From Hormiphora californensis (Eukaryota; Animalia; Ctenophora), in NCBI GenBank assembly GCA_020137815.1, contig CM035358.1, positions 434,001 to 498,000 on the forward strand: 64,000 nt of DNA, in the 5' to 3' direction. Made by a program: the position numbers and the translations under genes. Below, piece after piece: positions 1,271 through 52,488 of this stretch. Under the pieces are notes generated by a model. The model saw nothing but the letters and a program-made list of their open reading frames with translations, made no database searches and had not been told where the DNA came from. Positions within the stretch are counted from its first letter, which is position 1; each line of letters begins with the position of its first letter.

Positions 1271-4200
1271 GGTAATATACCAATTCTTGGTGTTCGAAGA
1301 AAATAGCGCTAATTAGCGGTTTTAATAGCGCTAATTAGCGCTAATTAGCGCTAATTAGCGATAGCGCTATTTATCGATAGCGCTAATAGCGCTAATAATA
1401 GCGCTATTTCACAAAATAGCGCTATTTTTGACCGCTAATTAGCGCTAATTAGCGATCAAAAATAGCGGTAATTAGCGGTAGCGCTATTTTAGCGCTTTTT
1501 GTAACCGCTAATCGGGCAATTTATCTAAAAAAATAGCGCTATTAACACTTACAAAAATAGCGCTAATTAGCGCTAATTAGCGCTATTAACATTCTTAATT
1601 CATTTTGTTCGAACCGCTAATTAGCGCTATTTCCAATTTCATCAAAATATAGAAAACGCTATGATTGGATAATGTATGTCACGTGACAAAAATCCTGTCA
1701 TGTGATGAAAAATAGCGCTAATTAGCGCTATTTTTATAATCGCTAATTAGCGCTATTATCAACTTAAACGTTTATTATTTTGTTAATAGCGCTAGTTAGC
1801 GCTAATTAGCGCTATTAATATTTGCAAATAGCGCTAATTAGCGCTAATTAGCGCTAATAAGCGCTAACTAGCGCTATTTGCATATTATTAATAGCGCTAA
1901 TTAGCGCTAATTAGCGCTATTATCAACTTGAACGTTTACTATTTTGTTAATAGCGCTAATTAGCGCTAATTAGCGCTATTAATGTTATGCAAATAGCGCT
2001 AGTTAGCGCTTATTAGCGCTAATTAGCGCTAATTAGCGCTATTTGGAAAATATTAATAGCGCTAATTAGCGCTAATTAGCGCTATTATCAACTTAAACAG
2101 TGATTATTTTAATAATAACGCTAATAAGCGCTATTATCAACTTAAACGTTTATTATTTTATTAATAGCGCTAATTAGCGCTAATTAGCGCTATTAATATT
2201 TTGCAAGTAGCGCTTGTTAGCGCTTGTTAGCGCTAATAAGCGCTAATTAGCGCTATTTGGAAAATATTAATAGCGCTTATTAGCGCTAATTAGCACTATT
2301 ATCAACTTAAACGTTTATTATTTTATTAATAGCGCTAATAAGCGCTAATTAGCGCTATTAATATTTTGCAAATAGTGCAAGTTAGCGCTTATTAGCGCTA
2401 ACTAGCGCTAATTAGCGCTATTTGGAAAATATTAATAGCGCTAATTAAAGCTAATTAGCGCTATTATCAACTTAAACATTGATTATTTTATTAATAGCGC
2501 TAATAAGCGCTATTAATATTTTGCTAATAAGCGCTAATTAGCGCTATTTGCATATTATAAATAGCGCTAATTAGCGCTTATTAGCGATATTATCAACTTA
2601 AACATTTACTATTTTATTAATAGCGCTAATTAGCGCTATTTGGAAAATATTAATAGCGTTTATTAGCGCTAATTAGCACTATTATCAACTTAAACGTTTA
2701 TTATTTTATTAATAGCGCTAATAAGCGCTAATTAGCGCTATTAATATTTTGCAAATAGTGCTAGTTAGCGCTTATTATAATAAGCTATAGCGCTAATAAG
2801 CGCTAATTAGCGCTATTTGGAAAATATTAATAGCGCTAATTAGCGCTTATTAGCGCTATTAATAAAATAATAAACGTTTAAGTTGATAATAGCACTAATT
2901 AGCGCTAATTAGCGCTATTAATATTTTGCAAATAGCGCTAATTAGCGCTAATTAGCGCTAATTAGCGCTTATTGGCGCTATTTTTAAAATATTAATAGCG
3001 CTAATTAGCGCTTATTAGCGCTATTAATAAAATAGTTAACGTTTAAGTTGATAATAGCGCTAATTAGCGCTAATTAGCGATATTAATATTTTGCAAATAG
3101 CGCTAATTAGCGCTAATAAGTGCTAACTAGCGCTATTTTTAAAATATTAATAGCGCTAATTAGCGCTAAATAGCGCTATTAATAATATGGAAATAGCGCT
3201 AACTAGCGCTATTTGCAAAATATTAATAGCGCTATTTAGCGCTTATTAGCGCTATTAATAAAATAGTAAACGTTGAAGTTGATAATAGCGCTAATTAGCG
3301 CTAATTAGCGCTATTAATATTTTGCAAATAGCGCTGATTAGCGCTTATTAGCGCTTATAAGTGCTAACTAGCGCTATTTTTAAAATATTAATAGCGCTAA
3401 TTAGCGCTTATTGGCGCTATTAATAAAATAGTAAACGTTTAAGTTGGTAATAGCGCTAATTAGCGCTAATTAGCGCTATTAATAATATGGAAATAGCGCT
3501 AATTAGCGCTTATTAGCGCTAATTAGCGCTAACTAGCGCTATTAGCAAAATATTAATAGCGCTAATTAGCGCTTATTAGCGCTATTAATAAAATAGTAAA
3601 CGTTTAAGTTGATAATAGCGCTAATTAGCGCTAAATAGCGCTATTAATAATATGGAAATAGCGCTTATTAGCGCTTATTAGCGCTAATTAGCGCTAACTA
3701 GCGCTATTTGCAAAATATTAATAGCGCTATTTAGCGCTTATTAGCGCTATTAATAAAATAGTTAACGTTTAAGTTGATAATAGCGCTAATTAGCGCTAAT
3801 TAGCGCTATTAATATTTTGCAAATAGCGCTAATTAGCGCTTATTAGCGCTAATAAGCGCTAACTAGCGCTATTTTTAAAATATTAATAGCGCTAATTAGC
3901 GCTTATTAGCGCTATTAATAAAATAGTTAACGTTTAAGTTGATAATAGCGCTAATTAGCGCTAATTAGCGCTATTAATAATATGGAAATAGCGCTAATTA
4001 GCGCTTATTAGCGCTTATTAGCGCTAACTAGCGCTATTAGCAAAATATTAATAGCGCTAATTAGCGCTTATTAGCGCTATTAATAAAATAGTAAACGTTT
4101 AAGTTGATAATAGCGCTAATTAGCGCTAAATAGCGCTATTAATAATATGGAAATAGCGCTTATTAGCGCTTATTAGCGCTAATTAGCGCTAACTAGCGCT

Positions 4201-5684
4201 ATTAGCAAAATATTAATAGCGCTAATTAGCGCTTATTAGCGCTATTAATAAAATAGTAAACGTTTAAGTTGATAATAGCGCTAATTAGCGCTAATTAGCG
4301 ATATTAATATTTTGCAAATAGCGCTAATTAGCGCTTATTAGCGCTAATAAGTGCTAACTAGCGCTATTTTTAAAATATTAATAGCGCTAATTAGCGCTTA
4401 TTAGCACTATTAATAAAATAGTAAACGTTTAAGTTGATAATAGCGCTAATTAGCGCTAATTAGCGCTATTAATAATATGGAAATAGCGCTAATTAGCGCT
4501 TATTAGCGCTAATTAGCGCTAACTAGCGCTATTAGCAAAATATTAATAGCGCTAATTAGCGCTTATTAGCGCTATTAATAAAATAGTTATCGTTTAAGTT
4601 GATAATAGCACTAATTAGCGCTAATTAGCGCTATTAATATTTTGCAAATAGCGCTAATTAGCGCTATTTTTAAATTGTCTATGGCGCTGATCAGCGCTAT
4701 TAACAAAATATACATTCATTATTTTGTTAAATGCGCTAAATAGCGCTAATTAGCGCTATTAACATTTTGCAAATAGCGCTAGTTAGCGCTTATTAGCGCT
4801 AATAAGCGCTAATCAGCGCTATTTGCAAAATATTAATAGCGCTAATTAGCGCTTATTAGCGCTATTATCAACTTAAACGTTAACTATTCTATTAATAGCG
4901 CTAATAAGCGCTAATTAGCGCTATTAATATTTTGCAAATAGCGCTAACTAGCGCTAATTATCGCTAATAAGCGCTAACTAGCGCTATTTGCAAATTATTA
5001 ATAGCGCTTATTAGCGCTAATTAGCGCTATTAACAAAGTAATATACATATATTGTGTTAATAGCGCTAATTAGCGCTATTTACAAATTGTTGATAGCGCT
5101 AATTAGCGCTAATTAGCGCTATTTAGCGCTTATTAGCGCTAGTTAGCGGTATTTTCATATTGTTAATAGCGCTAATTAGCGCTAATTAGCGCTATTTTGT
5201 AAATAAAAATAGCTAATCTTTAAGAAATGGCGCTAATTAGCGGTTACAGATTTTGACCAATCATAAGGATTTATTTAATCACGTGATCAACGCCAACCAA
5301 TCATGGCTTAGATACGTCAAATAGCGATGTCTCTTAAATAGCGCTATTTCAAAATTTTTAGGACCGCTATTTGAATAGCGGTGTTATCAAATTTGAAATT
5401 AATACAAAATTTAGAACCGCTATTTTTCTACAAAAATAGCGCTATTTTTAAGTGCAAAAAGCGCTAAAATAGCGCTACCGCTAATTACCGCTATTTGTGA
5501 CCGCTAATTAGCGCTAATTAGCGGTCACAAATAGCGCTATTTTATAAAATAGCGCTATTATTAGCGCTTCTAACACTTTTTATAAATATCGAAATCTTAG
5601 ATAGCGCTAATTAGCGCTAATTAGCGCTCTTAAAATCGCTAATTAGCGCTATTTTCTTCGAACACCAAGAATTGGTATATTACC
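1271..5684. mobile_element. Nested non-autonomous Merlin-like foldback element filled with satellite
   Basis: TIR GGTAATATACCAATTCTTGGTGTTCGAAGAAAATAGCGC... perfect for >45 bp and imperfect for several hundred. 8-bp TSD AAGATATG (1263-1270 and 5685-5692). GG termini plus 8-bp TSD fit Merlin. Confidence 0.85.
1303..5652. repeat. Palindromic TAGCGCTAAT 10-bp satellite with 165-bp higher-order unit
   Basis: Hundreds of TAGCGCTA palindromes. Marker CGTTTAAGTTG recurs at 3271, 3436, 3601, 3766, 3931, 4096, 4261, 4426 and 4591 (exact 165-bp period) and is inverted at ~1750-2700 and ~4865. Confidence 0.95.
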
Positions 5685-6118
5685 AAGATATGGTATACTT
5701 TGGTATACTTTGGTACCTTCCACATATTTTTTTAGTATTTTCCATATGCCAAAGTATACCAAAGTATACCAAAGTATACCATGGGAACCCCCCCGATGGA
5801 CATACACAATGCAGAGCGAGACAGAAAAGGTCATTCATAGAACATGGGGCATAAAGTAACTTTTGAATTGAAAATGGTAAGTTAGGGCAGTCGAGAAATC
5901 ATGGCTGAGAAAATATATTATATTTGGAGATGAATGAAAATCTCAAAGCACTTGTATCTTGTATGAAGTTATCCCAATTCCCAATTTCGAAATCCACCCG
6001 AGAGCGAATAAATTGTTTTTCATGAGCGTTTACACATGTGCAAAGTGGATTAGCTTCAGTTTTGCATGCCCTCTCAGTGAATCAGGTCCACCCTAGTATA
6101 CAATTTATAATATACCAT

Positions 6119-8257
6119 CACTGCGCTGGCAAGCGCAAAGGTTGCCATTCCCCCTCCCCCCAAAAGCGCCGCCAGAAACGCAGTTATACGTTTTATGGGT
6201 GTTTTGCCTGAAAACCTAGATTTCAGAAGGTTATAGCGTGGCTCTCTTTCATCCGTTTGACTTGAAATTTGGAATGTATACCCAGCTTGCTGCTTAGGGT
6301 CTTTGATTCAAGTTTAAAATTTCAAGTCTCTATCTCATCTGGAACCGAAGTTACAGACAGGTCCCATTTGCCCTAGTCATCACTGCGCTGGCAAGCGCAA
6401 AGGTTGTCATTCCCCCCCCCCCCCCCCCCTCAAAAAGCGCCGCCAGAAACGCAGTTATACGTTTTATGGGTGTTTGGCTGAAAATCCAGATTTGAGAAGG
6501 CTATAGCGTGGCTCCCTTTCATCCGTTTGACTTGAAATTTGGAACTTATACCCGGCTCCGGGTCATTGACTCAAGTTTAAAATTTCAAGTTTCTATCTCA
6601 TCTGGAAGCGAAGTTACAGACACGCGCGGGTAGGAGAGACGCTTTTTGTAAACCATATTCACGCCAAACGAAAAGAGATAGAGACTTCATCTTTTCACAG
6701 CTGGTAGATCTACTGGATGTGTGTGCATTAGTCGTAGTGGGGTCCCTTTTCATCGCCAGGAACGTCCTACAGAACGTCTTAAAGTCGTCATTTTTCAGAC
6801 TCTAACCAAAATTCTTTGAGCTCAATTTACACCCTGAAGACGGATTCTAATCGAAAATCGAAGACTATATCATGGAAAGAGAATTGTCTGAACTTTCAGA
6901 AGCTATACAGTGAATTTTGAAAACCAGACGTATAAGGGTCTTAAAACGCGTCTAAAGTGTTATGACTGTTTAAAAACAGATATGATGTTATGGGTTTTCT
7001 CGCTATAGCGGACTCAAATCTCATCCAATCGATCTCAAACTTGGTCAGTATCTTCATCTAGGTGGGCCCGATAATATGACGTCATAATTTTGACGTTACA
7101 ACGTCGTGACGTCATTTTATGACGTCAAAATGACGTCAAAAATGAAAATTTCTCAATTTCACGACTCTAACCTCTCTGTACCTATTCTACTAAATCTACA
7201 TGGATAAAAAATCCCAAAAATGATGCAAATTATACCAAAACTAATTAAAATTAGTAGGCCGGAAAGGTTGCCTTACGATTTGAGCTACCTTTGGCACTGG
7301 TACACTGGTACTGAAGATAACCGAGGCATCTGTAACCTGTCTATACCCCGTGAAAGTTACGGTGCCTAAGGTAGCTCAAATCGTAAGGCAACCTTTCCGG
7401 CCTACTAATTTTAATTAGTTTTGGTATAATTCAGTGTAACACATATGTGCGCATGTACGCGCGTAGGAGAGACGCTTTTTATAAACCATATTCACGCCAA
7501 ACGAAAAGAGATAGAAACTTCTCGTTTTCACAGCTGGTAGATCTACTGGATGTGTGTGCATTAGTCGATGTGAGGTCCCTTTTCATCGCCAGGAACGTCC
7601 TACAGAACGTCTTAAAGTCGTCATTTTTCAGACTCTGACTAAAATTCTTTGAGCTCATTTTACACCCTGAAGACGGATTCTAATCAAAAATCGAAGACTA
7701 TACAATAGAAAGAGAATTGTCTGAACTTTCAGAAACTATATAGCGAATTTTCAAAACTAGACGTATAAGGGTCTTAAAACGCGTCTAAAGTGTTATGACT
7801 GTTTAAAAATAGATATGACGATATGGGTTTTTTCGCCATAGCGGACTCAAATCTCATCCAATCGATCTCAAACTTGGCCAGTATCTTCATCTAGGTAATC
7901 TCGATGATATGACGTCATCATTATGACGTCATAACGACGTGACGTCATTTTATGACGTCAAAATGAAAATTTTGCAAATTGGTGATTCCATCCTCTCCTT
8001 ACCTGTTCTACTACATCTAAATGGATAAAAAATCCCAAAAAAGAAGCAAATTATACCAAAACTAATTGAAATTAGTAGGCCGGAAAGGTTGCCCTATGAT
8101 TTGAGCTACCTTTGGCACCAGTACATTCCCTTTTGAAGATAGAAGAAGCATCGGTTATACCCTGTCTGTACCCCGTGAATGTTACGGTGGCAAAGGTAGC
8201 TCAAATCATAGGGCAACCTTTCCGGCCTACTAATTTCAATTAGTTTTGGTATAATTT
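6119..8257 (+). mobile_element. Unclassified composite repeat, A-A'-B-B', each B ending in a ~200-bp hairpin
   Basis: A at 6119-6360 and 6381-6620 (CACTGCGCTGGCAAGCGCAAAGG...). B at ~6620-7431 and ~7458-8257. Hairpins at 7228-7431 and 8048-8257. Confidence 0.75.
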
Positions 8258-8296
8258 AAGTATACTATCTTGCACGTTCCAGAATATTAAAGCGAG

Positions 8297-8330
8297 AGTG
8301 GACCGACACAGAATTCTGTGTCGGTCCACT
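8297..8330. repeat. Perfect 34-bp palindrome flanked by TTAAAG...CTTTAA
   Basis: AGTGGACCGACACAGAA|TTCTGTGTCGGTCCACT. Confidence 0.9.
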
Positions 8331-8813
8331 TTAAATTGTTGGTTCCGTAATACCCCGTTGATACTTCCACTCGCATAGCAGAATAATTATGTTTTCTCTT
8401 TCCTAAAGTAAATTCGTGTCTTCCCTATTTCCCTCACTCTCTCTCACTCTCTTAATTCTTCTTTTGTTTGCTTAAGGTCATAAGGAACCTCCCATATTAT
8501 TCCAGAGTTATTCAGGGTGTTTTCATTTCTAGTTCGACCCTGCCTCCCCGCCGGAATTCTACCCACGAACACTGCCTATATAAACATATAATATCGCATA
8601 TTATATGCCTTGCTGTATTAAGTTGTGTTAATAGATCTTCCCACCCTCCGTTATAGGATATTCCCCATTAGGTTACCACTCCGGTTAACGGGATTAAAAT
8701 GCCAACATTCCTAAGTATATACCTAACTCTCGACCCAACAAGCACACCTACCGGGTAGGCCTCCACCTCCCCGGGTGCAGCTCTCTTTGATTTAAAATTT
8801 AAAGCTGAATTTT

Positions 8814-18371: not shown

Positions 18372-20395
18372 TAAGTGGAGCCGAACAAAGCAACCCATAC
18401 TCCAAAAATGCCCGAGAAAAAAAAAATCCAAGAAAAAATGATAGTCTAAAGGGGTTTTGAAATGGAAAAATTGGCTGTCAGTATGACGGAACGGGGTTTT
18501 TGGAAAACCAGTGGGTTCACAAAAAAATACCGGATAAAACCCCCCCAAATCAAAAAGGGAGACAATTAAACAATTTTGTGCCCGTTTTAGGATTAGAAAA
18601 AACAAAAAAAACTGTAAAAAATTGATACTCGTTTTTACATGTGTGACAACACATATATCCAACTTTGAGAACTTGAGGGACGGTCTCCCCAACACGGTTA
18701 AAAAATGACATTCCTGTTAGCAGGATTTTAAAAACGGGTTTTTTGGGCGGTTGAAACACAAAATGTGAAACAACAATTGAGTTTTTAAAAGCAGTCATCA
18801 AAGAGAGCATTACCCGTTTGTGCAAAATGAGGAAAAGGAAAGATTGTCTTATGGAAAATGAAGGATGCGGAGACTTTGCACCCTTTTGTACTATTTGAGA
18901 TTTTTGGAGAAATGGGATTTTAAACAAAAATGAATGAAGCACCCACTGAATCCTATGAGGGAAAGGGGTGAGAAGGCACGAAATTGGAGACTGAAACAAC
19001 CGATAAACGGTGAAACCTTTATGACGTCCTACAAGCAGGAGAGGCACGGGGATAGTTTCTGAAGGTCCCCGGTCGGGGAGGGCAGTGAGAGAAACGGGAA
19101 AACAGGGGGGGGGGAAAGGGAAAGTCGCAGCAGAAGAGGGTCGCCCCCAAACATGGAAAAAAGATAGGACCGGGGGACCAACCACCGTAACAGGAGCGCG
19201 GCGATACAATCCGAAGAGATTCTACACCACACCGACGGAAAAAAGGAAAGGTCGGAAATCAGATAGGTGCTACAAGCGGGAAGAGGGGGGGTACATGGCC
19301 AGAAAAAGCTACTCGAATAGGCGGAACCATTTAAAATAGTGGGGTGCACCAAAGGTTTTTTTGCGGATTTGAAAGGGAACCAAAAGGGGAGGAAAAAAAT
19401 GATGTGACAGGACATTTAAAAACACCATTTAAATTTTTTGGACACGGGCTGGGATCTCTCATCAGTACACGCACTGTCTACCAACGGGGAAAAAAGCAAA
19501 ATTTGCCCCAGAAACAATAATTTGGGGGTTACAAAAACAAAATCTTTGCCAAAAGGGAGATTCTTAAAAAAGCTTTTAGCAAAAACGGAAAATACGCAAC
19601 GTTTTTGTCAGGAAACCTGGCTGAGACATCCTAGCGGGAAGACTGAGGGAAATTGATATGAGAATTGATGTGAAAGAAAACAAAAAACTTTACCAATACG
19701 GGGGGAAAAATTGGCAAGGAACTTTCCCTTTGCCCTTTCCACAAATTGCAAAATCAAAGGTAAGAGAACGAAAAATTCCCGGAAACAGCGTCACACAATA
19801 TCAGCGAGTGAAATCCTAAATCTGGAAAAAATATGAAGGGGTATTTTTTGGAAAAAGGGAATAACAAATCTTGGGGGGTTTGGCATTGAAAATTCTAGGC
19901 GCATAGCAAGGGTAATGAGATACTGGTTTGGTACAATCCTTCCCAACGTCAAACATGCACAGAAATAGGGTCATTGGCAACATGGCCATGGGTTCGTTTC
20001 AGACAAAATGTTTTAAAAAAATCAAAGAGTTTTCTTTAAAAATTTCCCGATTACCCGAAGCTGAACTGAAAGGTGACACGCAAATAGGGACAAATGGGGG
20101 AATTTGAAAAATGTTCGATCAGCTTGGCTGAAAACACTCCAAATTGATTAAGAACACAAAAAACCCAAAATTAAAAAACATTCTAAAAACTATTCCCTTT
20201 TTTTTCAAAACACCAATTTTTAAATAGGAAAGCCCCTTTTTTGAGGCATCCTTTAAAATCAAGACAGATGTAGAAGGGGAACCCGTAGGGAAGTTCCATA
20301 TGATCAAAAAACGTAGGAAAAAAGAGCTATGACATTGGCAAGTTGGACAAATTGAAGATTTCAAAAGGGCCAGGGATCGGAACCCCTCCGGTCTT

Positions 20396-21514
20396 TTGGT
20401 GAAAAAGCCAGGAACGAAAAAATACCGAGTTGTGCAAGACCTGAGACAGCTCAACAAAGAGAGCATCCCCGAAACATTCCCATTACCAAATATAAACACG
20501 GTGATGAACAACATGGATGAATGTGAGTGGCTAACCTCATTTGACTTCACAAAAGGTTTCAATCAGATAAAACTTGACGAGGAAAGCAAACCACTAACAG
20601 CTTTCACTTATAAAAACACTCGCTATCAATGGACGAGGCTCATTATGGGTCACTGTTCTAGCAGTAGTATATTTGCCAAATCTATGGCAGAATTGTTCCA
20701 AAAAGTTCCTTTCCAAGCGCTAATTTGCTTCTTGGATGATGTGCTAATAGGAAGCAACACTGTTGATACACATCTAGACAGGCTGGAATTCGTTTTAGCA
20801 AGACTGTCATTTGGAGGATTGAAAATTAGTCCTTCTAAAACACAATTGTTCAGAAAACAAGTCAAATTTCTCGGACACATCATGAACAAAAATGGCATTT
20901 CTATTGATCCAGCTCGTGTGGATGCAATAAAGAAACTACAATTGCCAAAGTCTGTGAAAGAACTACAAAAATTTCTGGGAGCTGTAAATTATAACAGAGC
21001 CTATATAAAAGATTACAGCAAAATAGCAACCCCACTATACGACATGCTACAGAAGAAACGCAAATTTGAGTGGAATTCTACTTCCACAAAAGCATTTGAA
21101 AATTTGAAAAATGCACTTGGAAAAACACCGGTCTTGGTGATTCCAAACTACCAGCACCCTGACCAAAATTATGAGTTGACAATTGACTCCAGTAAAATCG
21201 GCCATGGGGCCACACTAAACCAAGTATTACATGGGAAAAAGAGGACCATAGCCTATTGGTCAAAATCGGTACCTGTGCATCAGAGAAAATTTGGGGCAAC
21301 TAGACTAGAATTTCTTGGTCTATGTCATGCTCTAAAGCACTTCCGGATGTACCTGATGGGTACAAAAAGGTTCAAGGTGCTAACTGATTGTAAAGCTCTG
21401 CTAAACTTGAAAACCATTTTCAAGAAAAGAGTGCTACATTCACAGAAAAAAGCGAATTGGAAGAATACAATTTTAAACATAAGCACATTGCTGGGAATTG
21501 TAACATGGGTATGA
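20396..21514 (+). CDS. pol: Gypsy pol fragment: reverse transcriptase and RNase H
   Basis: YRVVQDLRQLN, FPLPNI, DFTKGFNQI, FLDDVLI, FLGH, LTIDSS, LEFLGL, FKVLTDCKAL motifs. Confidence 0.95.
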   Translation: MVKKPGTKKYRVVQDLRQLNKESIPETFPLPNINTVMNNMDECEWLTSFDFTKGFNQIKLDEESKPLTAFTYKNTRYQWTRLIMGHCSSSSIFAKSMAELFQKVPFQALICFLDDVLIGSNTVDTHLDRLEFVLARLSFGGLKISPSKTQLFRKQVKFLGHIMNKNGISIDPARVDAIKKLQLPKSVKELQKFLGAVNYNRAYIKDYSKIATPLYDMLQKKRKFEWNSTSTKAFENLKNALGKTPVLVIPNYQHPDQNYELTIDSSKIGHGATLNQVLHGKKRTIAYWSKSVPVHQRKFGATRLEFLGLCHALKHFRMYLMGTKRFKVLTDCKALLNLKTIFKKRVLHSQKKANWKNTILNISTLLGIVTWV

Positions 21515-35579: not shown

Positions 35580-37023
35580 TCAAACATTAAGTTTCGGTGC
35601 CTCTACCTCCAGATGTTCCCTATACTTCTCCAGAGCAGGTCTCAACTCCTCCTTCACAAACTTTTCAACTTGTTCCGGGCACCGTCCTATAAACTTACTG
35701 GGATCCAAAATGTCATCCAAACTCTCCTTCACAGGGGCGAAGAACTCGTCTCTAGATACTCGCTCTATCATATCATTAACCCCACCCTCCTCCTTCACAT
35801 TCTTCCCTGCTTCCTGAGCCAGCACTCTCAATCTCTCGTGACACTCTTGTCTGTCAGCCCCAGATTTAACCATCGCCATCAGGATATTCTCTGTGGCCAT
35901 GAAGGGGAGCTCTTCAGAGATCCGTTTAGCAATAACACGAGGGTAGACCACCATCCCACTAACAATGTTTAGAGTGGTGTTGAGCAGGATATCAGCTGTT
36001 AGGAAGGCCTCTGCAATCACCACACGCCTGTTGGCTGAATCGTCCAGGGTTCGTTCGAACCATTGGTTAGCGTGAGTGTGAGCAGCAGAGAGAGGCAAGG
36101 AGAGGAGGTGCCGAGCTAAGGAGCAGCACCTCTCAGATCTCATCGGGTTTCGTTTGTAAGGCATTGCACTGCTACCAATCTGGTTCTTTTCAAATGGTTC
36201 CTCTAGCTCTTTTAGACTGGCTAACAGTCTCAAATCGGTGCAGAACTTATTGACTGAGGTTCCAATACCAGCAACAGCATTCAGGATCATTGCATCAATT
36301 TTCCGGGAGTAAGTTTGGCCGGTAATGGTGAATTTCGAGGAAAACCCAGCTTTCTCGGAAACCAGTTTGTCTAAATCCTCTACCTTGTCATGTTCTCCAT
36401 TGAAGAGCTCCAGAAAACTGGCCTGGGTTCCAGTTGTACCCTTCACGCCCCTGAACCTCATTCCCTCAATCTCACGTTCCAGTGCTGCGAGGTCCAATAA
36501 GAAATCTTGAGCCCAGATACAAGAACGCTTGCCAACTGTTGTGATTTGAGCCGGCTGGAAGTGAGTGAAACCAAGTTGAGGGATTGACTTGTTGGAGACT
36601 GCGAAACTGGCGAATGCATTACAAACCCTAGCTAACTTTGAGCACAGCAACTTCAATCCATCTCTCATCACAATAAGATCAGTGTTGTCCCCAACAAAGC
36701 AGCTGGTAGCCCCTAGATGTATAATTGGAGCTGCAGACTGGACATGCTGCTCCAAAAGTGTGCACGTGGGCCATGACATCATGACGACGAGATTTCTCCT
36801 CAGCGGCAGCTCGAGCCCAGTCAATATTAGATATATTTTCTCGCATTTCTGATATCTGCTCTTTTGTGATTTCTAGACCAAGTTCCATTTCCGATTCTGC
36901 AAGGTCAGCCCAGAGTTTTCGCCAAGTCTCGAACTTCTTCCGATCGGAAAAGATGTAACTCATCTCCTCCGACGCATAGCGATCAGTCAGAGGGCTACGG
37001 TACTTTGATTGGGGTTCTGCCAT
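35580..37023 (-). CDS. ADSL: Adenylosuccinate lyase, intronless, one apparent frameshift near 36740
   Basis: [71 protein letters not shown]. Two overlapping ORFs join at ...ACP/SAAPIIH. Confidence 0.95.
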
Positions 37024-37115
37024 TACACTAGGGTCAAGCTGAAGGTGAAAAAGAGGAAAAGATGGCAAGCGGAGTGGAGAAATCTGAAAATCGCGGCGAA
37101 AAACGGAAAAAAAAC

Positions 37116-38460
37116 TTGGCATACGTTGCAGGCCCCTTATAATATAATATAAGGGGCCTGGAGGGAATACCGCGCTAGGGGGGAATACATAATCAATCAT
37201 ATCTCCAGTTCCAGATAAGGTACAGAAATCGTTTTGGTAGCGTTGGAAAGAGGAAGATAACAGCTTTCAAATGCAACCGGTTTCAGGTTTCTATCTTATC
37301 AGGAACAGGAGATATGAACCAAACTCCGCAAAATCGAGTGCGGTAAAATCAAAATTTGAATGAAATTTTAAAAAAGGTGTCCCTGCAAGAATCTGTGACG
37401 TCACTTTTTGAAAACAACCCATCTTTCAACGGCTATTGCTCAGCCTTCTTAAGTCCAATTAACTTCTCTCAAAAACAGCAAGGTAGATAATCGTCAGATC
37501 TAACAACTGGTGAAAGAATCAAGTCAAACGGACTTCAGGAGCCAAAGTTATAAGCACCGCCGTTTTTTCGACCGCAAAGTTATCTTCGACCCAGCCGGGA
37601 TCAGGCCAAACGCGCGCGCGGCATTCCCTCCAGTCCCCTCGTTGCGGGGGTGCGCGCATGAGGGGGCTGCAGCGCATTCCAAAAAAAAAACTGAACTTTT
37701 TGAGCTGAATTTTTGTTTCAATCCCTTAAAATTAACTAGCGCGCATTTATACCGTTGCATGAGATGGAAGGCGCGAAACATACACGCATAATGCGCTGCA
37801 TTTTCACGCGCAATAACGAATTGGATTTTGAAATTCCCAAAATTCTTAGTGGAAGCTCTTACGGTAATTCCCACGCCCCGTGGGAAAGTTTTTGACCGTG
37901 GGAAAGTTTTCAAACCGTGGGAAAAGAGAGATTCATACGATAACTTTAAAAAAATAATTATTTTTTTAATGTTATAGTCGAATTTTTTAATCAAGGGACA
38001 GGGGGCCGCGCATTTACAAAGTCTTTTTTGCGCGTGCTAAATGTTTTTGCTCATATCTCCTCTTCCTGATATAATAAGATAAAGACTTGATCTTGGTTGC
38101 GTTGAAAAGGTCTTAAAATTATCTTTCCAACGCTTCCGGGTTCAAGTCTTAAGATTGCCAGGAACTTGATCTCGATTGTCACGCGCAAATACAACGCCGC
38201 GCGACCTCTCTGAATGCGCGGCCCCTGTCCCTTGATTAAAAAATTCGACTTTATTGTATATATCTCTCTTTTCCCACGGTTCGAAAATTTTCCCACGGTC
38301 AAAAACTTTCCCACGGGGCGTGGAAATACCGTAAGAGCTTCCACTATCTGGGATTTCAAAGTTTGAGATTTTTGCCAAAAACGGAAAACCGCAAAATATT
38401 GGAGAAAAGGGGTCATTGTTGCGGGCTGCGGCTGAACCACCAAGCCAGCATAAGGCATAA
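37116..38460. mobile_element. Composite non-autonomous DNA-transposon-like region with internal inverted repeat
   Basis: Arms ~37830-38013 and ~38213-38360 are inverted. Segments are shared with 45484-45730 and 63300-63480 (AAAATGCACGCG, CACGCGCAAATACAACGCCGCG, AAGGGGCCTGCARCGTATGCCAA). Confidence 0.65.
37868..38315. promoter_or_regulatory. Cluster of seven CGTGGGAA (CSL/Su(H)/RBPJ consensus) sites
   Basis: 37868(-), 37879, 37897, 37916, 38271(-), 38290(-), 38308(-). Function unproven. Confidence 0.45.
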
Positions 38461-49887: not shown

Positions 49888-52488
49888 ATGTCTGATAAAG
49901 AACCTATTCTGAATCCCTCAGAGTTTGAGATAGATTTCCAGGAGTTTAGTAACACACTGCTACCCGATACCGCTACAGTTCCTCTTGGTGGTGGGGCACC
50001 CCCTCCCTACCAACCCCCTGGTGAGAGGGTGACCTGGACATCATGTCATTTTGAATTGTATTAGTTTCCAGTTTCTCATTTTCAATATTTTCCATTCCCA
50101 GGCACATCGTCTGATTACAAGATAGCAGTTGACTCTGATACTGAGTTGGACTCAACGAACCTGCTGAGATCAGAGGATGGCTCTACACCAGCTACCAGTG
50201 CATTCTGGTCTCTTGAGTTTTACCAGCAGTTCTTCAATGTAAACGATGAAATTGTAAGTTTCTATTTGTATCTCCTCAATTTTATCATGTCCCTTCATTT
50301 CTAGTTTGATCTCCACCCCTGTCTTCTTTCCAACTGTAACACACCCCCCACTCCAGGTTCTAGACAGGTTACTTCACGCCTGCCTACCTCTACCCTCTAA
50401 CGACTTTATGGGTAAACTCAGGCCCTCCCCTGATATCTATGGACCTCTGTGGGTTTGTATAACCCTGGTATTCTCAACTGCCATCAGTGGTAACATGGCT
50501 GATTTCTTTGCTAGTATGGGGGATGATACGGAGTGGACTTACGACTTCAAAAAAGGTAGGTGCCTACACTCTATTTCATTGTTTAACTCTGTCAGAGCAT
50601 TGACCTGATCCTATCCTCATTTCTCGGAGCGTGCGAGAACTGTGGCCAGAGCATTGACAGTTCATGACAGAACTCCATTTTATGCCCTAAACATTCCATC
50701 AAACTCACATCTTCTTCTTCCCAGTAACGATAGCAGCAACAGTGATATTCCTGTATGTGACAACTGTCCCTGCCTCCCTATCCGGATATCTCTGGTGGAG
50801 AAAGAGTAACACTGAACTAAAGCTAGTGGAGAGTCTATCACTGTACGGCTACTCTCTTACTGTCTTCATTCCCGCTTCTGTAAGTCAAGTTGTTTGTCCC
50901 GTGGATTGGTATGATGTTATGTTGCCAAGAATAAATGGTAATTACCCATCAAGAATCATTCTTTCTCCCACAGATACTGCTGTGTATAAATCACGATTGG
51001 ATCCGGTGGATTCTTGTTCTAGTGATTATAGGAACTAGTGGTAAGTTATATACAGATAGAGACATGCCCCCGTTTAAAACAACACAAAATAACACAGTCA
51101 CGTACTGGCACCATTTAGTGATAATAACAGTAAATCGAATATCACGCACAAAACAAAGCGATTACAAATCGAATCACGCACTGACGCCACTTTGTTATAT
51201 CGAGCATAAATACAATGTCACGCACTGACTACAGTTACACATTGAGTCACGTACCTCACGTCACAATGTAACATAGTCAGGACCACTATTGGTGCGCGGT
51301 CGTGCCCACGGAAGGAGTGCTTGGATCATCTTGAAACCGGTTTTAAGTTCACTAATGTATACCCAAAAGGGTCTGTAGCCATTTGGGTGATGTTCTGACA
51401 ATCCAATCACGAGTTATGACCGAAAAACAGTGAAAAAAGACGTTTTAAAGTGACAAAAAGGAGGATCTGAACACAGCCCTTATATGAAGGGCTGGGGCTT
51501 TGAAACTTCTTGTGTGGACAGAGAATTGTCCAAATTTGCAGTGTCAACTTTCAGATAGTTTCTATCTTTTGTAGTTATCTAATTACAGTCGTTTAAACAT
51601 GTGAGAAGTTGCTAAAGGGGCCTATAATACTGCTTGTGAAGTGATCACTTGACGAGATTTGCCCAATTAGACAGCGGATTAAAGCATACAAGCGGTAAGA
51701 GCAAGCAATATGAGACGGAAGTAGTACCTAATCGCCCTGTTTTGCAGGGTCATACAGATCGTCTCACATGTTTAAACGACTCTAATTAGATAACTACAAA
51801 AGATAGAAACTATCTGAAAGTTGACACTGCAAATTTGGACAATTCTCTGTCCACACAAGAAGTTTCAAAGCCCCAGCCCTTCATATAAGGGCTGTAATCA
51901 GATCCTCCTTTTTGTCACTTTAAAACGTCTTTTTTCACTGTTTTTCGGTCATAACTCCTGATTGGATTGTCAGAACATCACCCAAATGGCTACAGACACT
52001 TTTGGGTATACATTAGTGAACTTAAAACCGGTTTCAAGATGATCCAAGCACTCCTTCCGTGGGCACGACCGCGCACCAATAGTGGTCCTGACTAACACAA
52101 CGGCGGGCTGCCTGTGTAAATACAACATTATTTCTCTTCTGCACATTACTAATACATCTTGTTCTGCAGGTGCTGTGTTGACCCTCACTATATGGAAGTT
52201 GCTGGCAGGAGAGCCACGTCAAATGGCTCTTATTATAACAGCAGTACTGGCTGCACTACATGTAGCCCTTATCCTACTGTTCAAGGTGACCTGACTTATA
52301 CATGTTATATTGAGTTGTTCAAACACTGATGAGCCAGACTCATAACAATAGAAAAATGTATATTCATTAGATATTATTAGATGGTTATTTTCATGGTTTA
52401 GGATTCTAACACCACCTCTTCTTTTCAGATGTATTTCTTCGCCCAAACGTCAAAAGCACCTACTCCAGCACCAGTGCCAACAAGATGA
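49888..52488 (+). CDS. YIPF1: Yip1-domain family protein, YIPF1/YIPF2-like
   Basis: FWSLEFYQQFFNV, PDIYGPLWVCITLVFSTAISGN, YDFKK, SLYGYSLTVFIPAS, LFK-MYFF. Seven exons. Confidence 0.9.
51274..52094. mobile_element. Academ-type non-autonomous foldback element in YIPF intron 5
   Basis: TAGTCAGGACC...GGTCCTGACTA, ~330-bp nearly identical TIRs, 3-bp TSD ACA. TAG..CTA ends with a 3-4-bp TSD fit Academ. Confidence 0.85.

What the first reader, a model, noticed from the sequence alone, without database searches (positions are those of the whole stretch)
7228..8257. Duplicated terminal hairpin whose two arms change together
Seen: both B units end in a ~65-bp stem with a ~70-nt loop. The copies differ at three stem positions and each change is mirrored in the opposite arm (TTAAAA/TTTTAA vs TTGAAA/TTTCAA; CCTTACGA/TCGTAAGG vs CCCTATGA/TCATAGGG), while the loops diverge freely. 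Inferred: either selection on a folded structure or arm-to-arm copying (template switching or hairpin-primed replication) at the end of an unclassified, possibly rolling-circle-type element.
Basis: partly seen in the sequence, partly recalled or inferred. Interest (0 to 1): 0.7.

Follow-up and report, generated by a model that had tools for sequence, protein, structure and literature searches.

The report
Giant self-correcting hairpin on rolling-circle transposon
In what is likely a comb jelly, the two hairpins are the ends of two copies of an abundant non-coding repeat, one inserted inside the other, that is likely a rolling-circle (Helitron2-type) jumping element, and its unusually long 64-base-pair hairpin changes in both arms at once, likely because one arm is recopied from the other during DNA synthesis.

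Summary
Observation confirmed: perfect 64- and 67-bp stems with three mirrored changes (chance about 2e-5), and loops that diverge faster (22%) than the bodies (8%).

It is not a local duplication. One 1.05-kb copy (6380-7429) is nested in another (6118-8254); the uninterrupted form exists elsewhere (L002; joints). The repeat is abundant in two related organisms, and the host is likely a ctenophore.

The layout resembles non-autonomous Helitron2/HINE elements: hairpins at both ends, a 10-bp subterminal inverted repeat and an AT junction. One end hairpin, however, is five to ten times longer than described.

Mirroring extends beyond the window. A second organism has three changes at 98-99.9% in both arms. 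A distant family (L001) differs at 21 mirrored columns (10 transversions, 4 gap columns) against 4 unmirrored. Mismatches next to the loop are inherited uncorrected, and one mismatch costs only about 3 of 90 kcal/mol. This favours arm-to-arm DNA copying over RNA selection.

Not shown: an autonomous partner, copying tied to transposition, or mirrors for three in-arm variants (contig placement ambiguous). Two Helitron2 criteria were not met, so it is filed as 'works like', not as a member. The scan had no earlier look-alike.

The parts
6118..8254 (-). Outer copy of the non-autonomous element (block A 6118-6359, spacer, block B 7463-8047, giant hairpin), interrupted at 6379/7430 by the inner copy. 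Strand given by the Helitron2 convention; with no ORF the polarity is a convention.
   Evidence: uninterrupted relative L002; diverse loose ends behind 8254/8255
6380..7429 (-). Inner (nested) copy, 1050 bp, junctions A|TCAC...TATAA|T on the + strand; lacks most of the spacer
   Evidence: loose ends with unrelated flanks before 6379 in 14 and 21 contigs; empty-site joints 6375/6376 continuing into the 7429+ spacer (tables 5c and 7)
7228..7291 (.). H1 inner arm (64 bp)
7292..7367 (.). H1 loop with the imperfect loop-proximal stem (unmirrored changes)
7368..7431 (.). H1 terminal arm; the element ends at 7429 and the last two bases are target
8048..8114 (.). H2 inner arm (67 bp)
8115..8190 (.). 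H2 loop and loop-proximal stem; the G.G mismatch 8115/8190 is the majority state in organism A
8191..8257 (.). H2 terminal arm; the element ends at about 8254
6122..6137 (.). Short stem-loop (6-bp stem, 4-nt loop) at the other end of the outer copy; identical in the inner copy, L001 and L002
6384..6399 (.). Short stem-loop of the inner copy
6137..6146 (+). 10-bp subterminal inverted repeat (AAAGGTTGCC) abutting the short stem-loop; the inner copy has it at 6399-6408 with one change
8212..8221 (-). Inverted partner of the subterminal repeat, inside the terminal arm 33 bp from the end (inner copy 7387-7396); its pairing partners in the inner arms lie at 8084-8093 and 7263-7272
7430..7462 (.). 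Right part of the variable, CA/CG-rich spacer of the outer copy (left part 6360-6379); the target of the nested insertion
   Evidence: (table 4 indels at 7443-7457)

Best explanation
The two hairpins are the matching ends of two nested copies of an abundant 1.1-kb non-coding repeat that is likely a non-autonomous Helitron2/HINE-type rolling-circle transposon of a likely ctenophore host, and its long arms are likely kept identical by one arm being recopied from the other during DNA synthesis. SHOWN: the nesting; both termini; a short stem-loop plus a 10-bp subterminal repeat at one end; the same motif in both arms of a 64-125-bp hairpin at the other end; mirrored changes, including transversions and indels, across copies, organisms and families; uncorrected mismatches next to the loop. 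INFERRED: an unseen RepHel transposase recognises the subterminal repeat and moves the element through a single-stranded intermediate. When that strand (or a chromosomal copy) is copied, the polymerase passes the first arm and the loop. The new strand then folds back on itself, seeded by the few loop-proximal pairs, and uses its own first arm as template for the second (quasi-palindrome template switch). Changes outward of the switch point are mirrored or erased; changes in the seed and loop are not. Lineages that carry the result then amplify it. Selection probably keeps a hairpin and the subterminal motif, but does not by itself explain base-perfect arms.
For: Nesting and termini. Mirroring between window copies: 3 of 3. 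Organism B (run X10): 8094/8211, 8097/8208 and 8098/8207 at 98.2-99.9% on both arms, two of them transversions; organism A (X6): 8097/8208 at 16.4/11.7% and 8098/8207 at 4.4/3.7%. L001 against H2: of 74 stem columns 49 are the same, 21 mirrored (7 transitions, 10 transversions, 4 gap columns), 4 unmirrored. The subterminal motif carries the same T>G change at all three places in L001. The loop-proximal G.G mismatch is inherited in about 97% of the depth in X6 (8190 G>C 3.3%, 8115 G>C 0.1%). 102 single substitutions cost 3.3 kcal/mol on average (max 5.5) of -89.7 and leave at least 95% of the arm paired. No G-T wobble in either perfect stem. The layout matches Helitron2 (PMC3627910, passages), DINE-1/HINE (PMC4067079, PMC2374699, PMC7492417, passages) and FoHeli1/2 (PMC5148889, section 6). 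Template switching as a source of compensatory changes: PMC8794818 (passages).
Against: No autonomous partner was seen (no genome held; no Rep/helicase family in 47 of 62 ORFs scanned). Three left-arm variants have no listed mirror at 4% or more: 8094 C>T (15.7% in X6), 8077 A>T (24.4% in X6, 12% in X10) and 8068 G>A (88.5% in X10). 473 of 1032 and 196 of 261 contigs fit both arms, so placement may explain this, but real unmirrored subfamilies are not excluded. The same ambiguity weakens the mirrored rows: they show the variant is near-fixed on both arms in X10, but they are not phased on single molecules. L001's stem has 6 mismatches in 125 bp, so correction is not continuous, and its outer 50 bp may be an assembly artefact (the contig ends in the arm). 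The 5' repeat lies 33 bp inside, not 0-2 bp, and the junction is A|T, not T|T. Only three whole hairpins were read.
Confidence: 0.62

Rival explanations
1. Same element, but the arms are equalised by mismatch repair of the folded single-stranded (or cruciform) DNA. The 64-bp stem is ordinary duplex to the repair system, which fixes a mismatch in either direction and ignores the frayed loop-proximal pairs.
For: It gives the same pattern: mirrored outer stem, uncorrected loop-proximal mismatches, and mirrored indels. Rolling-circle intermediates are single-stranded (circular joined ends reported for FoHeli1, PMC5148889 passages).
Against: It does not by itself explain stems of different length or L001's arm running about 50 bp further into the body complement, if that extension is real. 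Nothing here separates it cleanly from template switching.
Confidence: 0.15
2. The stem is kept by selection on a folded RNA or DNA structure through classical two-step compensatory substitution, as proposed for the short stems of DINE-1 and Helitron2.
For: The three window changes are all transitions that could pass through G-U/G-T pairs. Compensatory changes in Helitron2/DINE-1 terminal stems are reported (PMC3627910; PMC2374699). The hairpin persists in a family only 53% identical.
Against: A single mismatch barely changes folding. There are no wobble pairs in 64 and 67 bp. 10 transversions and 4 gap columns are mirrored against L001. Loop-proximal mismatches are tolerated family-wide. No Rfam family reaches its gathering score (13 weak generic hairpin hits).
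Confidence: 0.1
3. The hairpin is a separate small foldback element (MITE) with 64-bp terminal inverted repeats and an AT or TA target duplication. It was captured at the end of the repeat, and its arms co-vary as TIRs of cut-and-paste elements do.
For: The hairpin is formally flanked by AT on both sides. One 406-nt contig in X6 carries a whole hairpin with 198 unaligned letters on the body side (record 32; record 16).
Against: The arms contain the subterminal motif of the far end, and it changes together with that end in L001. All 3 whole hairpins read sit on a homologous body. Contig depth across the body-arm junction is of the same order as on the arms (not a copy number). The odd contig can be a divergent body or a chimeric path through a palindrome.
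Confidence: 0.1
4. A local tandem duplication of a B unit, followed by compensatory change in situ.
For: The AABB order at first sight.
Against: L002 and joints in X1 and X6 show the uninterrupted A-spacer-B form whose spacer is split in the window; diverse flanks mark both termini.
Confidence: 0.02

Closest known systems
Helitron2 / HLE2 non-autonomous elements (Bao and Jurka 2013, PMC3627910, passages read; HELIANO, PMC11417382, passages read)
   Same: Hairpins at both ends; a short asymmetric inverted repeat (10-11 bp; described range 8-15); one copy directly beside the short hairpin about 20 bp from its end; the other copy inside a hairpin at the opposite end; the 5' base is T; compensatory changes between related elements are reported.
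   Different: The repeat-bearing hairpin is 64-67 bp (125 bp or more in L001) with a loop of about 70 nt. The repeat sits 33 bp inside instead of 0-2 bp from the end. The junction is A|T rather than T|T. The proposed switch in which the two repeats pair and open the 5' hairpin is not favoured at equilibrium here (-13 against about -85 kcal/mol; in the whole-element fold the far repeat stays unpaired).
DINE-1 / HINE (PMC4067079, PMC2374699, PMC7492417; passages read)
   Same: Non-coding and abundant; two conserved blocks with a variable simple-repeat spacer; 5' subTIR plus IR hairpin; 3' subTIR plus stem-loop. The minus strand of the window copies starts with the TATACC letters that also begin several DINE-1 subTIRs in Table 1 of PMC2374699.
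   Different: There the IR is 7-12 bp and lies 1-22 bp from the subTIR, and insertion is at TT. Here the paired region is five to ten times longer and base-perfect, and the TATACC start is not the motif shared with the far end and is not kept in L001.
FoHeli1/2 of Fusarium oxysporum (PMC5148889, section 6 read)
   Same: Read on the + strand: a TCA start followed at once by a small hairpin, a short inverted repeat, and the far repeat inside a hairpin 38-51 bp (here 33 bp) from the end. Self-insertion (nesting) is described there.
   Different: FoHeli1/2 are autonomous 5-6-kb fungal elements with short hairpins; no giant stem is described.
Replication template switching that creates and maintains hairpins (PMC8794818, passages read)
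   Same: One copying event fixes or mirrors stem changes.
   Different: Described for rRNA and miRNA genes; here it is proposed for the terminus of a transposon family.

Membership tests
Helitron2/HLE2 (HINE) | Hairpins at both termini | tested here: met
   6-bp stem-loop at 6122-6137 and 6384-6399; 64-67-bp hairpin at the other end
Helitron2/HLE2 (HINE) | Short asymmetric inverted repeat of 8-15 bp | tested here: met
   10 bp in the window, 11 bp in L001, co-varying at three places; shorter than HELIANO's setting of more than 11 nt
Helitron2/HLE2 (HINE) | 3' repeat immediately upstream of the short hairpin, about 20-30 bp from the end | tested here: met
   On the minus strand it abuts the stem-loop, 19 bp from the end
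Helitron2/HLE2 (HINE) | 5' repeat pairs with downstream bases in a 5' hairpin | tested here: met
   7391 pairs with 7268 in the whole-element fold on both strands
Helitron2/HLE2 (HINE) | 5' repeat within 0-2 (up to 4) bp of the terminus | tested here: not met
   33 bp inside
Helitron2/HLE2 (HINE) | Insertion between T and T | tested here: not met
   Both window copies have A|element|T; L001, L002 and the loose-end contigs have A before TCAC. The position of the cut within AT cannot be fixed.
Helitron2/HLE2 (HINE) | No target-site duplication | tested here: inconclusive
   A[T...A]T is formally the same as a 2-bp AT duplication; the inner site also has 2 extra bases against the empty-site form of other copies
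Helitron2/HLE2 (HINE) | Variable simple-repeat region between two conserved blocks | tested here: met
   CA/CG-rich spacer with many small indels (table 4); not a GTCY repeat
Helitron2/HLE2 (HINE) | Autonomous partner with a RepHel transposase sharing the termini | not testable with these tools
   No genome held; no Rep/helicase family in 47 of 62 window ORFs of 105 aa or more
Helitron1/HLE1 | 5'-TC start and A|T target | tested here: met
   On the + strand both copies start TC after A and end before T
Helitron1/HLE1 | 3' CTRR end behind a short hairpin; no terminal inverted repeat | tested here: not met
   Ends TATAA on + and GTGA on -; a subterminal repeat is present
MITE (TIR element) | TIRs at both ends of the mobile unit | tested here: not met
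   The two ends of the 1.1-kb unit are unlike apart from the 10-bp subterminal motif
MITE (TIR element) | Hairpin inserted alone at unrelated sites with a TSD | tested here: inconclusive
   0 of 3 whole hairpins are solo; one ambiguous contig
Known structured RNA (Rfam 15) | Match at the gathering score | tested here: not met
   13 hits with E up to 1, none at gathering; the best are generic miRNA hairpin models
Parvovirus-like rolling-hairpin terminus (features recalled, not from a call) | Flip/flop loop isomers relative to the body | tested here: inconclusive
   H1 and H2 loops have the same orientation; 2 single-contig opposite-strand joints; short contigs cannot phase the loop against the body

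The most novel reading that the evidence does not exclude
A ctenophore lineage of rolling-circle elements that rewrites its own terminus. At each round of transposition the new strand folds back and self-primes on the inner arm, so the inner arm is a built-in template for the end that the transposase cuts. This would be a hairpin-primed step, as in parvovirus-type replication, grafted onto Helitron2 transposition, with a copied tract whose length differs by family (64 bp here, 125 bp or more in L001).
Probability: 0.2. Interest if true: 0.75.

Novelty: new variant of a known kind. Interest (0 to 1): 0.45.

Why it matters
How Helitron2/HLE2 ends work is largely untested; the standing proposal is that short terminal repeats pair and open a small 5' hairpin. 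An abundant family with a 64-125-bp hairpin cannot do this at equilibrium, so it constrains that model. Thousands of copies with a long neutral stem would also be a natural data set for how often, in which direction and how close to the loop arm-to-arm copying acts in an animal germline. This bears on the origin of compensatory changes in general. The duplication itself is ordinary (a nested insertion).

Tried and rejected
Genome-wide copy collection: impossible, no genome held.

Pattern scans found nothing in viral contigs, genome contigs or the first metagenome scan. The second metagenome scan gave 2 loci.

No third whole copy lies in the window, only a weak, distantly related fragment near 37281-37403.

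No linked Rep/helicase or recombinase ORF was found. 47 of 62 stop-to-stop ORFs of 105 aa or more were scanned; 15 in simple-repeat tracts were dropped, and ORFs starting in the two satellites were excluded beforehand.

Small-share metagenome runs X7 and X18 gave 16 and 6 contigs, too few for shares. Their loose ends hint at a third family with a changed terminal motif on both the body side (X7) and the flank side (X18), but these come from different samples.

Inherited ADAR-type editing (lead from note e1-10607387) was considered and rejected as the main cause: the mirrored changes include transversions and indels, and the perfect stems hold no wobble pairs.

Literature: searches listed no paper whose title or abstract start describes a giant self-homogenising Helitron2 hairpin or this ctenophore family. 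Two searches likewise listed none; PMC11934779 and PMC12001565 were checked by term search and were uninformative. Repbase/Dfam and subscription journals could not be searched, and supplements of the Helitron papers (terminal alignments) were not read and could hold long-hairpin families. The scan's own index had no look-alike.

Full report
1. Observation. The hairpins are as described. H1 has arms 7228-7291 and 7368-7431, perfect over 64 bp; H2 has arms 8048-8114 and 8191-8257, perfect over 67 bp. They fold as DNA at -84.7 and -89.7 kcal/mol, with 0 of 200 shuffles as stable. The copies differ at 3 of 64 positions per arm, all mirrored; the chance of this placement is 2.4e-5. Loop plus loop-proximal stem differ at 17 of 76 columns, the bodies at 69 of 820 (p=4e-4). 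The arms are not significantly slower than the bodies (P=0.20).

2. Host. The window is eukaryotic: it has satellites, a reverse-transcriptase/RNase H fragment and an adenylosuccinate lyase gene. The best named match of that protein is Mnemiopsis leidyi at 73%, the next named animals at 67% or less, so the host is likely a ctenophore. Other notes on this genome say the same (unchecked). No genome is held.

3. It is a nested insertion, not a tandem duplication. The order is A1 A2 B1 B2. Locus L002, from a metagenome contig of unknown host, holds A, spacer and B without a break. Its spacer is the sequence that the window has split between 6360-6376 and 7429-7462. Contigs of organism A show the same empty form: joints and loose ends after 6371-6376 run on into the letters of 7429 onward (tables 5c and 7). 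So an inner copy (6380-7429) sits in the spacer of an outer copy (6118-8254). The two are 89.7% identical and 81-82% identical to L002. The repeat is abundant: 2633-4681 contigs were laid on 1.2 kb in each of 4 runs from two organisms. Depth is not a copy number, and one run may be the window's own source. Termini are marked by long, mutually unlike loose ends before 6379 (14 and 21 contigs, agreement 0.41-0.43) and behind 8254/8255 (6, 2 and 1 contigs); both loose-end tables are cut by the tool. Both window copies read A|TCAC...TATAA|T. This can be read as insertion into AT without duplication or as a 2-bp AT duplication, and the inner site has two extra bases against the empty form.

4. Anatomy. 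At one end lies a 6-bp stem-loop, identical in all 4 elements read, abutting a 10-bp motif AAAGGTTGCC. The same motif lies in both arms of the giant hairpin, inverted in the terminal arm, 33 bp from the end. Between two conserved blocks is a CA/CG-rich spacer with many small indels. Read on the minus strand, this is the Helitron2 plan of PMC3627910 (passages): a 5' repeat inside a 5' hairpin, and a 3' repeat right before a short hairpin 20-30 bp from the end. It is also the DINE-1/HINE plan (PMC4067079, PMC2374699, PMC7492417; passages). Read on the plus strand it resembles FoHeli1/2 (PMC5148889, section 6), where self-insertion is also described. Two criteria fail: the repeat is 33 bp inside, not 0-2, and the junction is A|T, not T|T. 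No RepHel partner could be shown. I therefore say that it likely works like a non-autonomous Helitron2 element and do not file it as a member.

5. Mirroring beyond the window. With H2 as reference (mirror of p = 16305-p), organism B (X10) has 8094 C>A 98.3% with 8211 G>T 98.2%, 8097 T>C 99.4% with 8208 A>G 99.6%, and 8098 G>T 99.8% with 8207 C>A 99.9%. Organism A (X6) has 8097/8208 at 16.4/11.7% and 8098/8207 at 4.4/3.7%. Against this, 3 left-arm variants have no mirror listed at 4% or more: 8094 C>T (15.7%, X6), 8077 A>T (24.4%, X6; 12%, X10) and 8068 G>A (88.5%, X10). The 2 hidden rows cannot be these mirrors, judged from the per-run tallies of change types. About half to three quarters of the contigs fit both arms and their placement is not documented, so I treat these rows as inconclusive. 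The mirrored rows are near-fixed on both arms but are not phased on single molecules either. The phased evidence is L001, a single contig of a distant family (53% identical by alignment, unknown host). It has the same short stem-loop, a collinear body and a stem of at least 125 bp with 6 mismatches. Against H2, of 74 stem columns 49 are the same, 21 are mirrored (7 transitions, 10 transversions, 4 gap columns) and 4 are unmirrored. The subterminal motif has the same T>G change at the far end and in both arms, which ties the hairpin to the element. L001's arm runs about 50 bp further into the complement of the body and the contig ends there, so that part may be an assembly artefact.

6. Mechanism. 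Selection on pairing is a weak explanation for base-perfect arms. 102 single substitutions (every second stem position, three letters each) cost 3.3 kcal/mol on average of 89.7 and leave at least 95% of the arm paired. The stems hold no wobble pairs, and transversions and indels are mirrored. A G.G mismatch next to the loop is carried by about 97% of the depth in organism A. Copying explains all of this. A polymerase that has passed one arm and the loop lets the new strand fold back on a short loop-proximal seed and copies the second arm from the first; everything outward is mirrored or erased, while the seed and loop are not. This is the template-switch mechanism shown for RNA gene stems in PMC8794818 (passages). 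That it happens on the single-stranded transposition intermediate is inference; L001's 6 mismatches fit correction that is occasional or tied to transposition. Mismatch repair of the folded strand predicts nearly the same pattern and is the main rival. The proposal in PMC3627910 that the two short repeats pair and open the 5' hairpin is not favoured at equilibrium here: that duplex is -13 kcal/mol, and in folds of the whole inner copy the far repeat stays unpaired on both strands. A helicase could still enforce it.

7. Novelty. Non-autonomous Helitron2 elements, their nesting and compensatory changes in their short stems are known. The passages read give paired regions of 7-12 bp with spacers of 1-22 bp; here the stem is 64-67 bp or more. 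Searches listed nothing that, by title and abstract start, describes such a hairpin or this family. Repbase/Dfam, subscription papers and supplements were not seen. Rfam has no family at gathering score, and the scan's index had no look-alike. Verdict: a new variant of a known kind, interest 0.45. The bolder reading, self-primed rewriting of the terminus at each transposition, has about 0.2 probability and would deserve about 0.75.

Noticed in passing
window 51274-52094: A second, unrelated large palindrome: 333-bp arms, 98.5% complementary, about 155-nt loop, longest perfect run 113 bp; possibly another foldback element with homogenised arms.
   Followed up: no
window 1271-5684: A 4.4-kb block bounded by inverted ends of about 268 bp (87%) and filled with a 10-bp/165-bp satellite that switches orientation internally; it is itself inserted in a small repeat whose parts lie at 693-787 and 5690-5784.
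   Followed up: no
window 37834-38355: Element of about 520 bp with long imperfect inverted ends and three internal repeats of an 18-bp unit in each arm, upstream of the adenylosuccinate lyase gene.
   Followed up: no
window 37270-37560: Weakly similar remnant of a related repeat family (shared block-A tail, a motif like the subterminal repeat at 37373, TGACGTCA at 37396) at the 5' end of the adenylosuccinate lyase gene.
   Followed up: partly
window 8287-8334: A perfect 34-nt palindrome (8297-8330) between two TTAA sites, just right of the outer element; it looks like a collapsed TTAA-targeting TIR element (family label would be from recall only).
   Followed up: no
window 6094-6117 and 8255-8268: The flanks of the outer copy are themselves partly inverted repeats of each other (an AT-rich palindromic target site).
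   Followed up: no
window 35580-37266 (-): Adenylosuccinate lyase gene in two overlapping frames (short intron or frameshift); used for host placement.
   Followed up: partly
window 20333-21511 (+): Reverse transcriptase-RNase H fragment of an LTR-type retroelement in a region with many frame breaks.
   Followed up: no
L001 1-125 (contig end): The terminal arm continues about 50 bp into the complement of the body, with 2-3 differences: either a real longer fold-back product or an assembler path through a palindrome.
   Followed up: partly
window 7075-7140 and 7908-7962: Cluster of 3-4 TGACGTCA palindromes in block B, kept in L001 and L002 despite 47% and 18% divergence; it matches a bZIP/CRE-type site (label recalled).
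   Followed up: no
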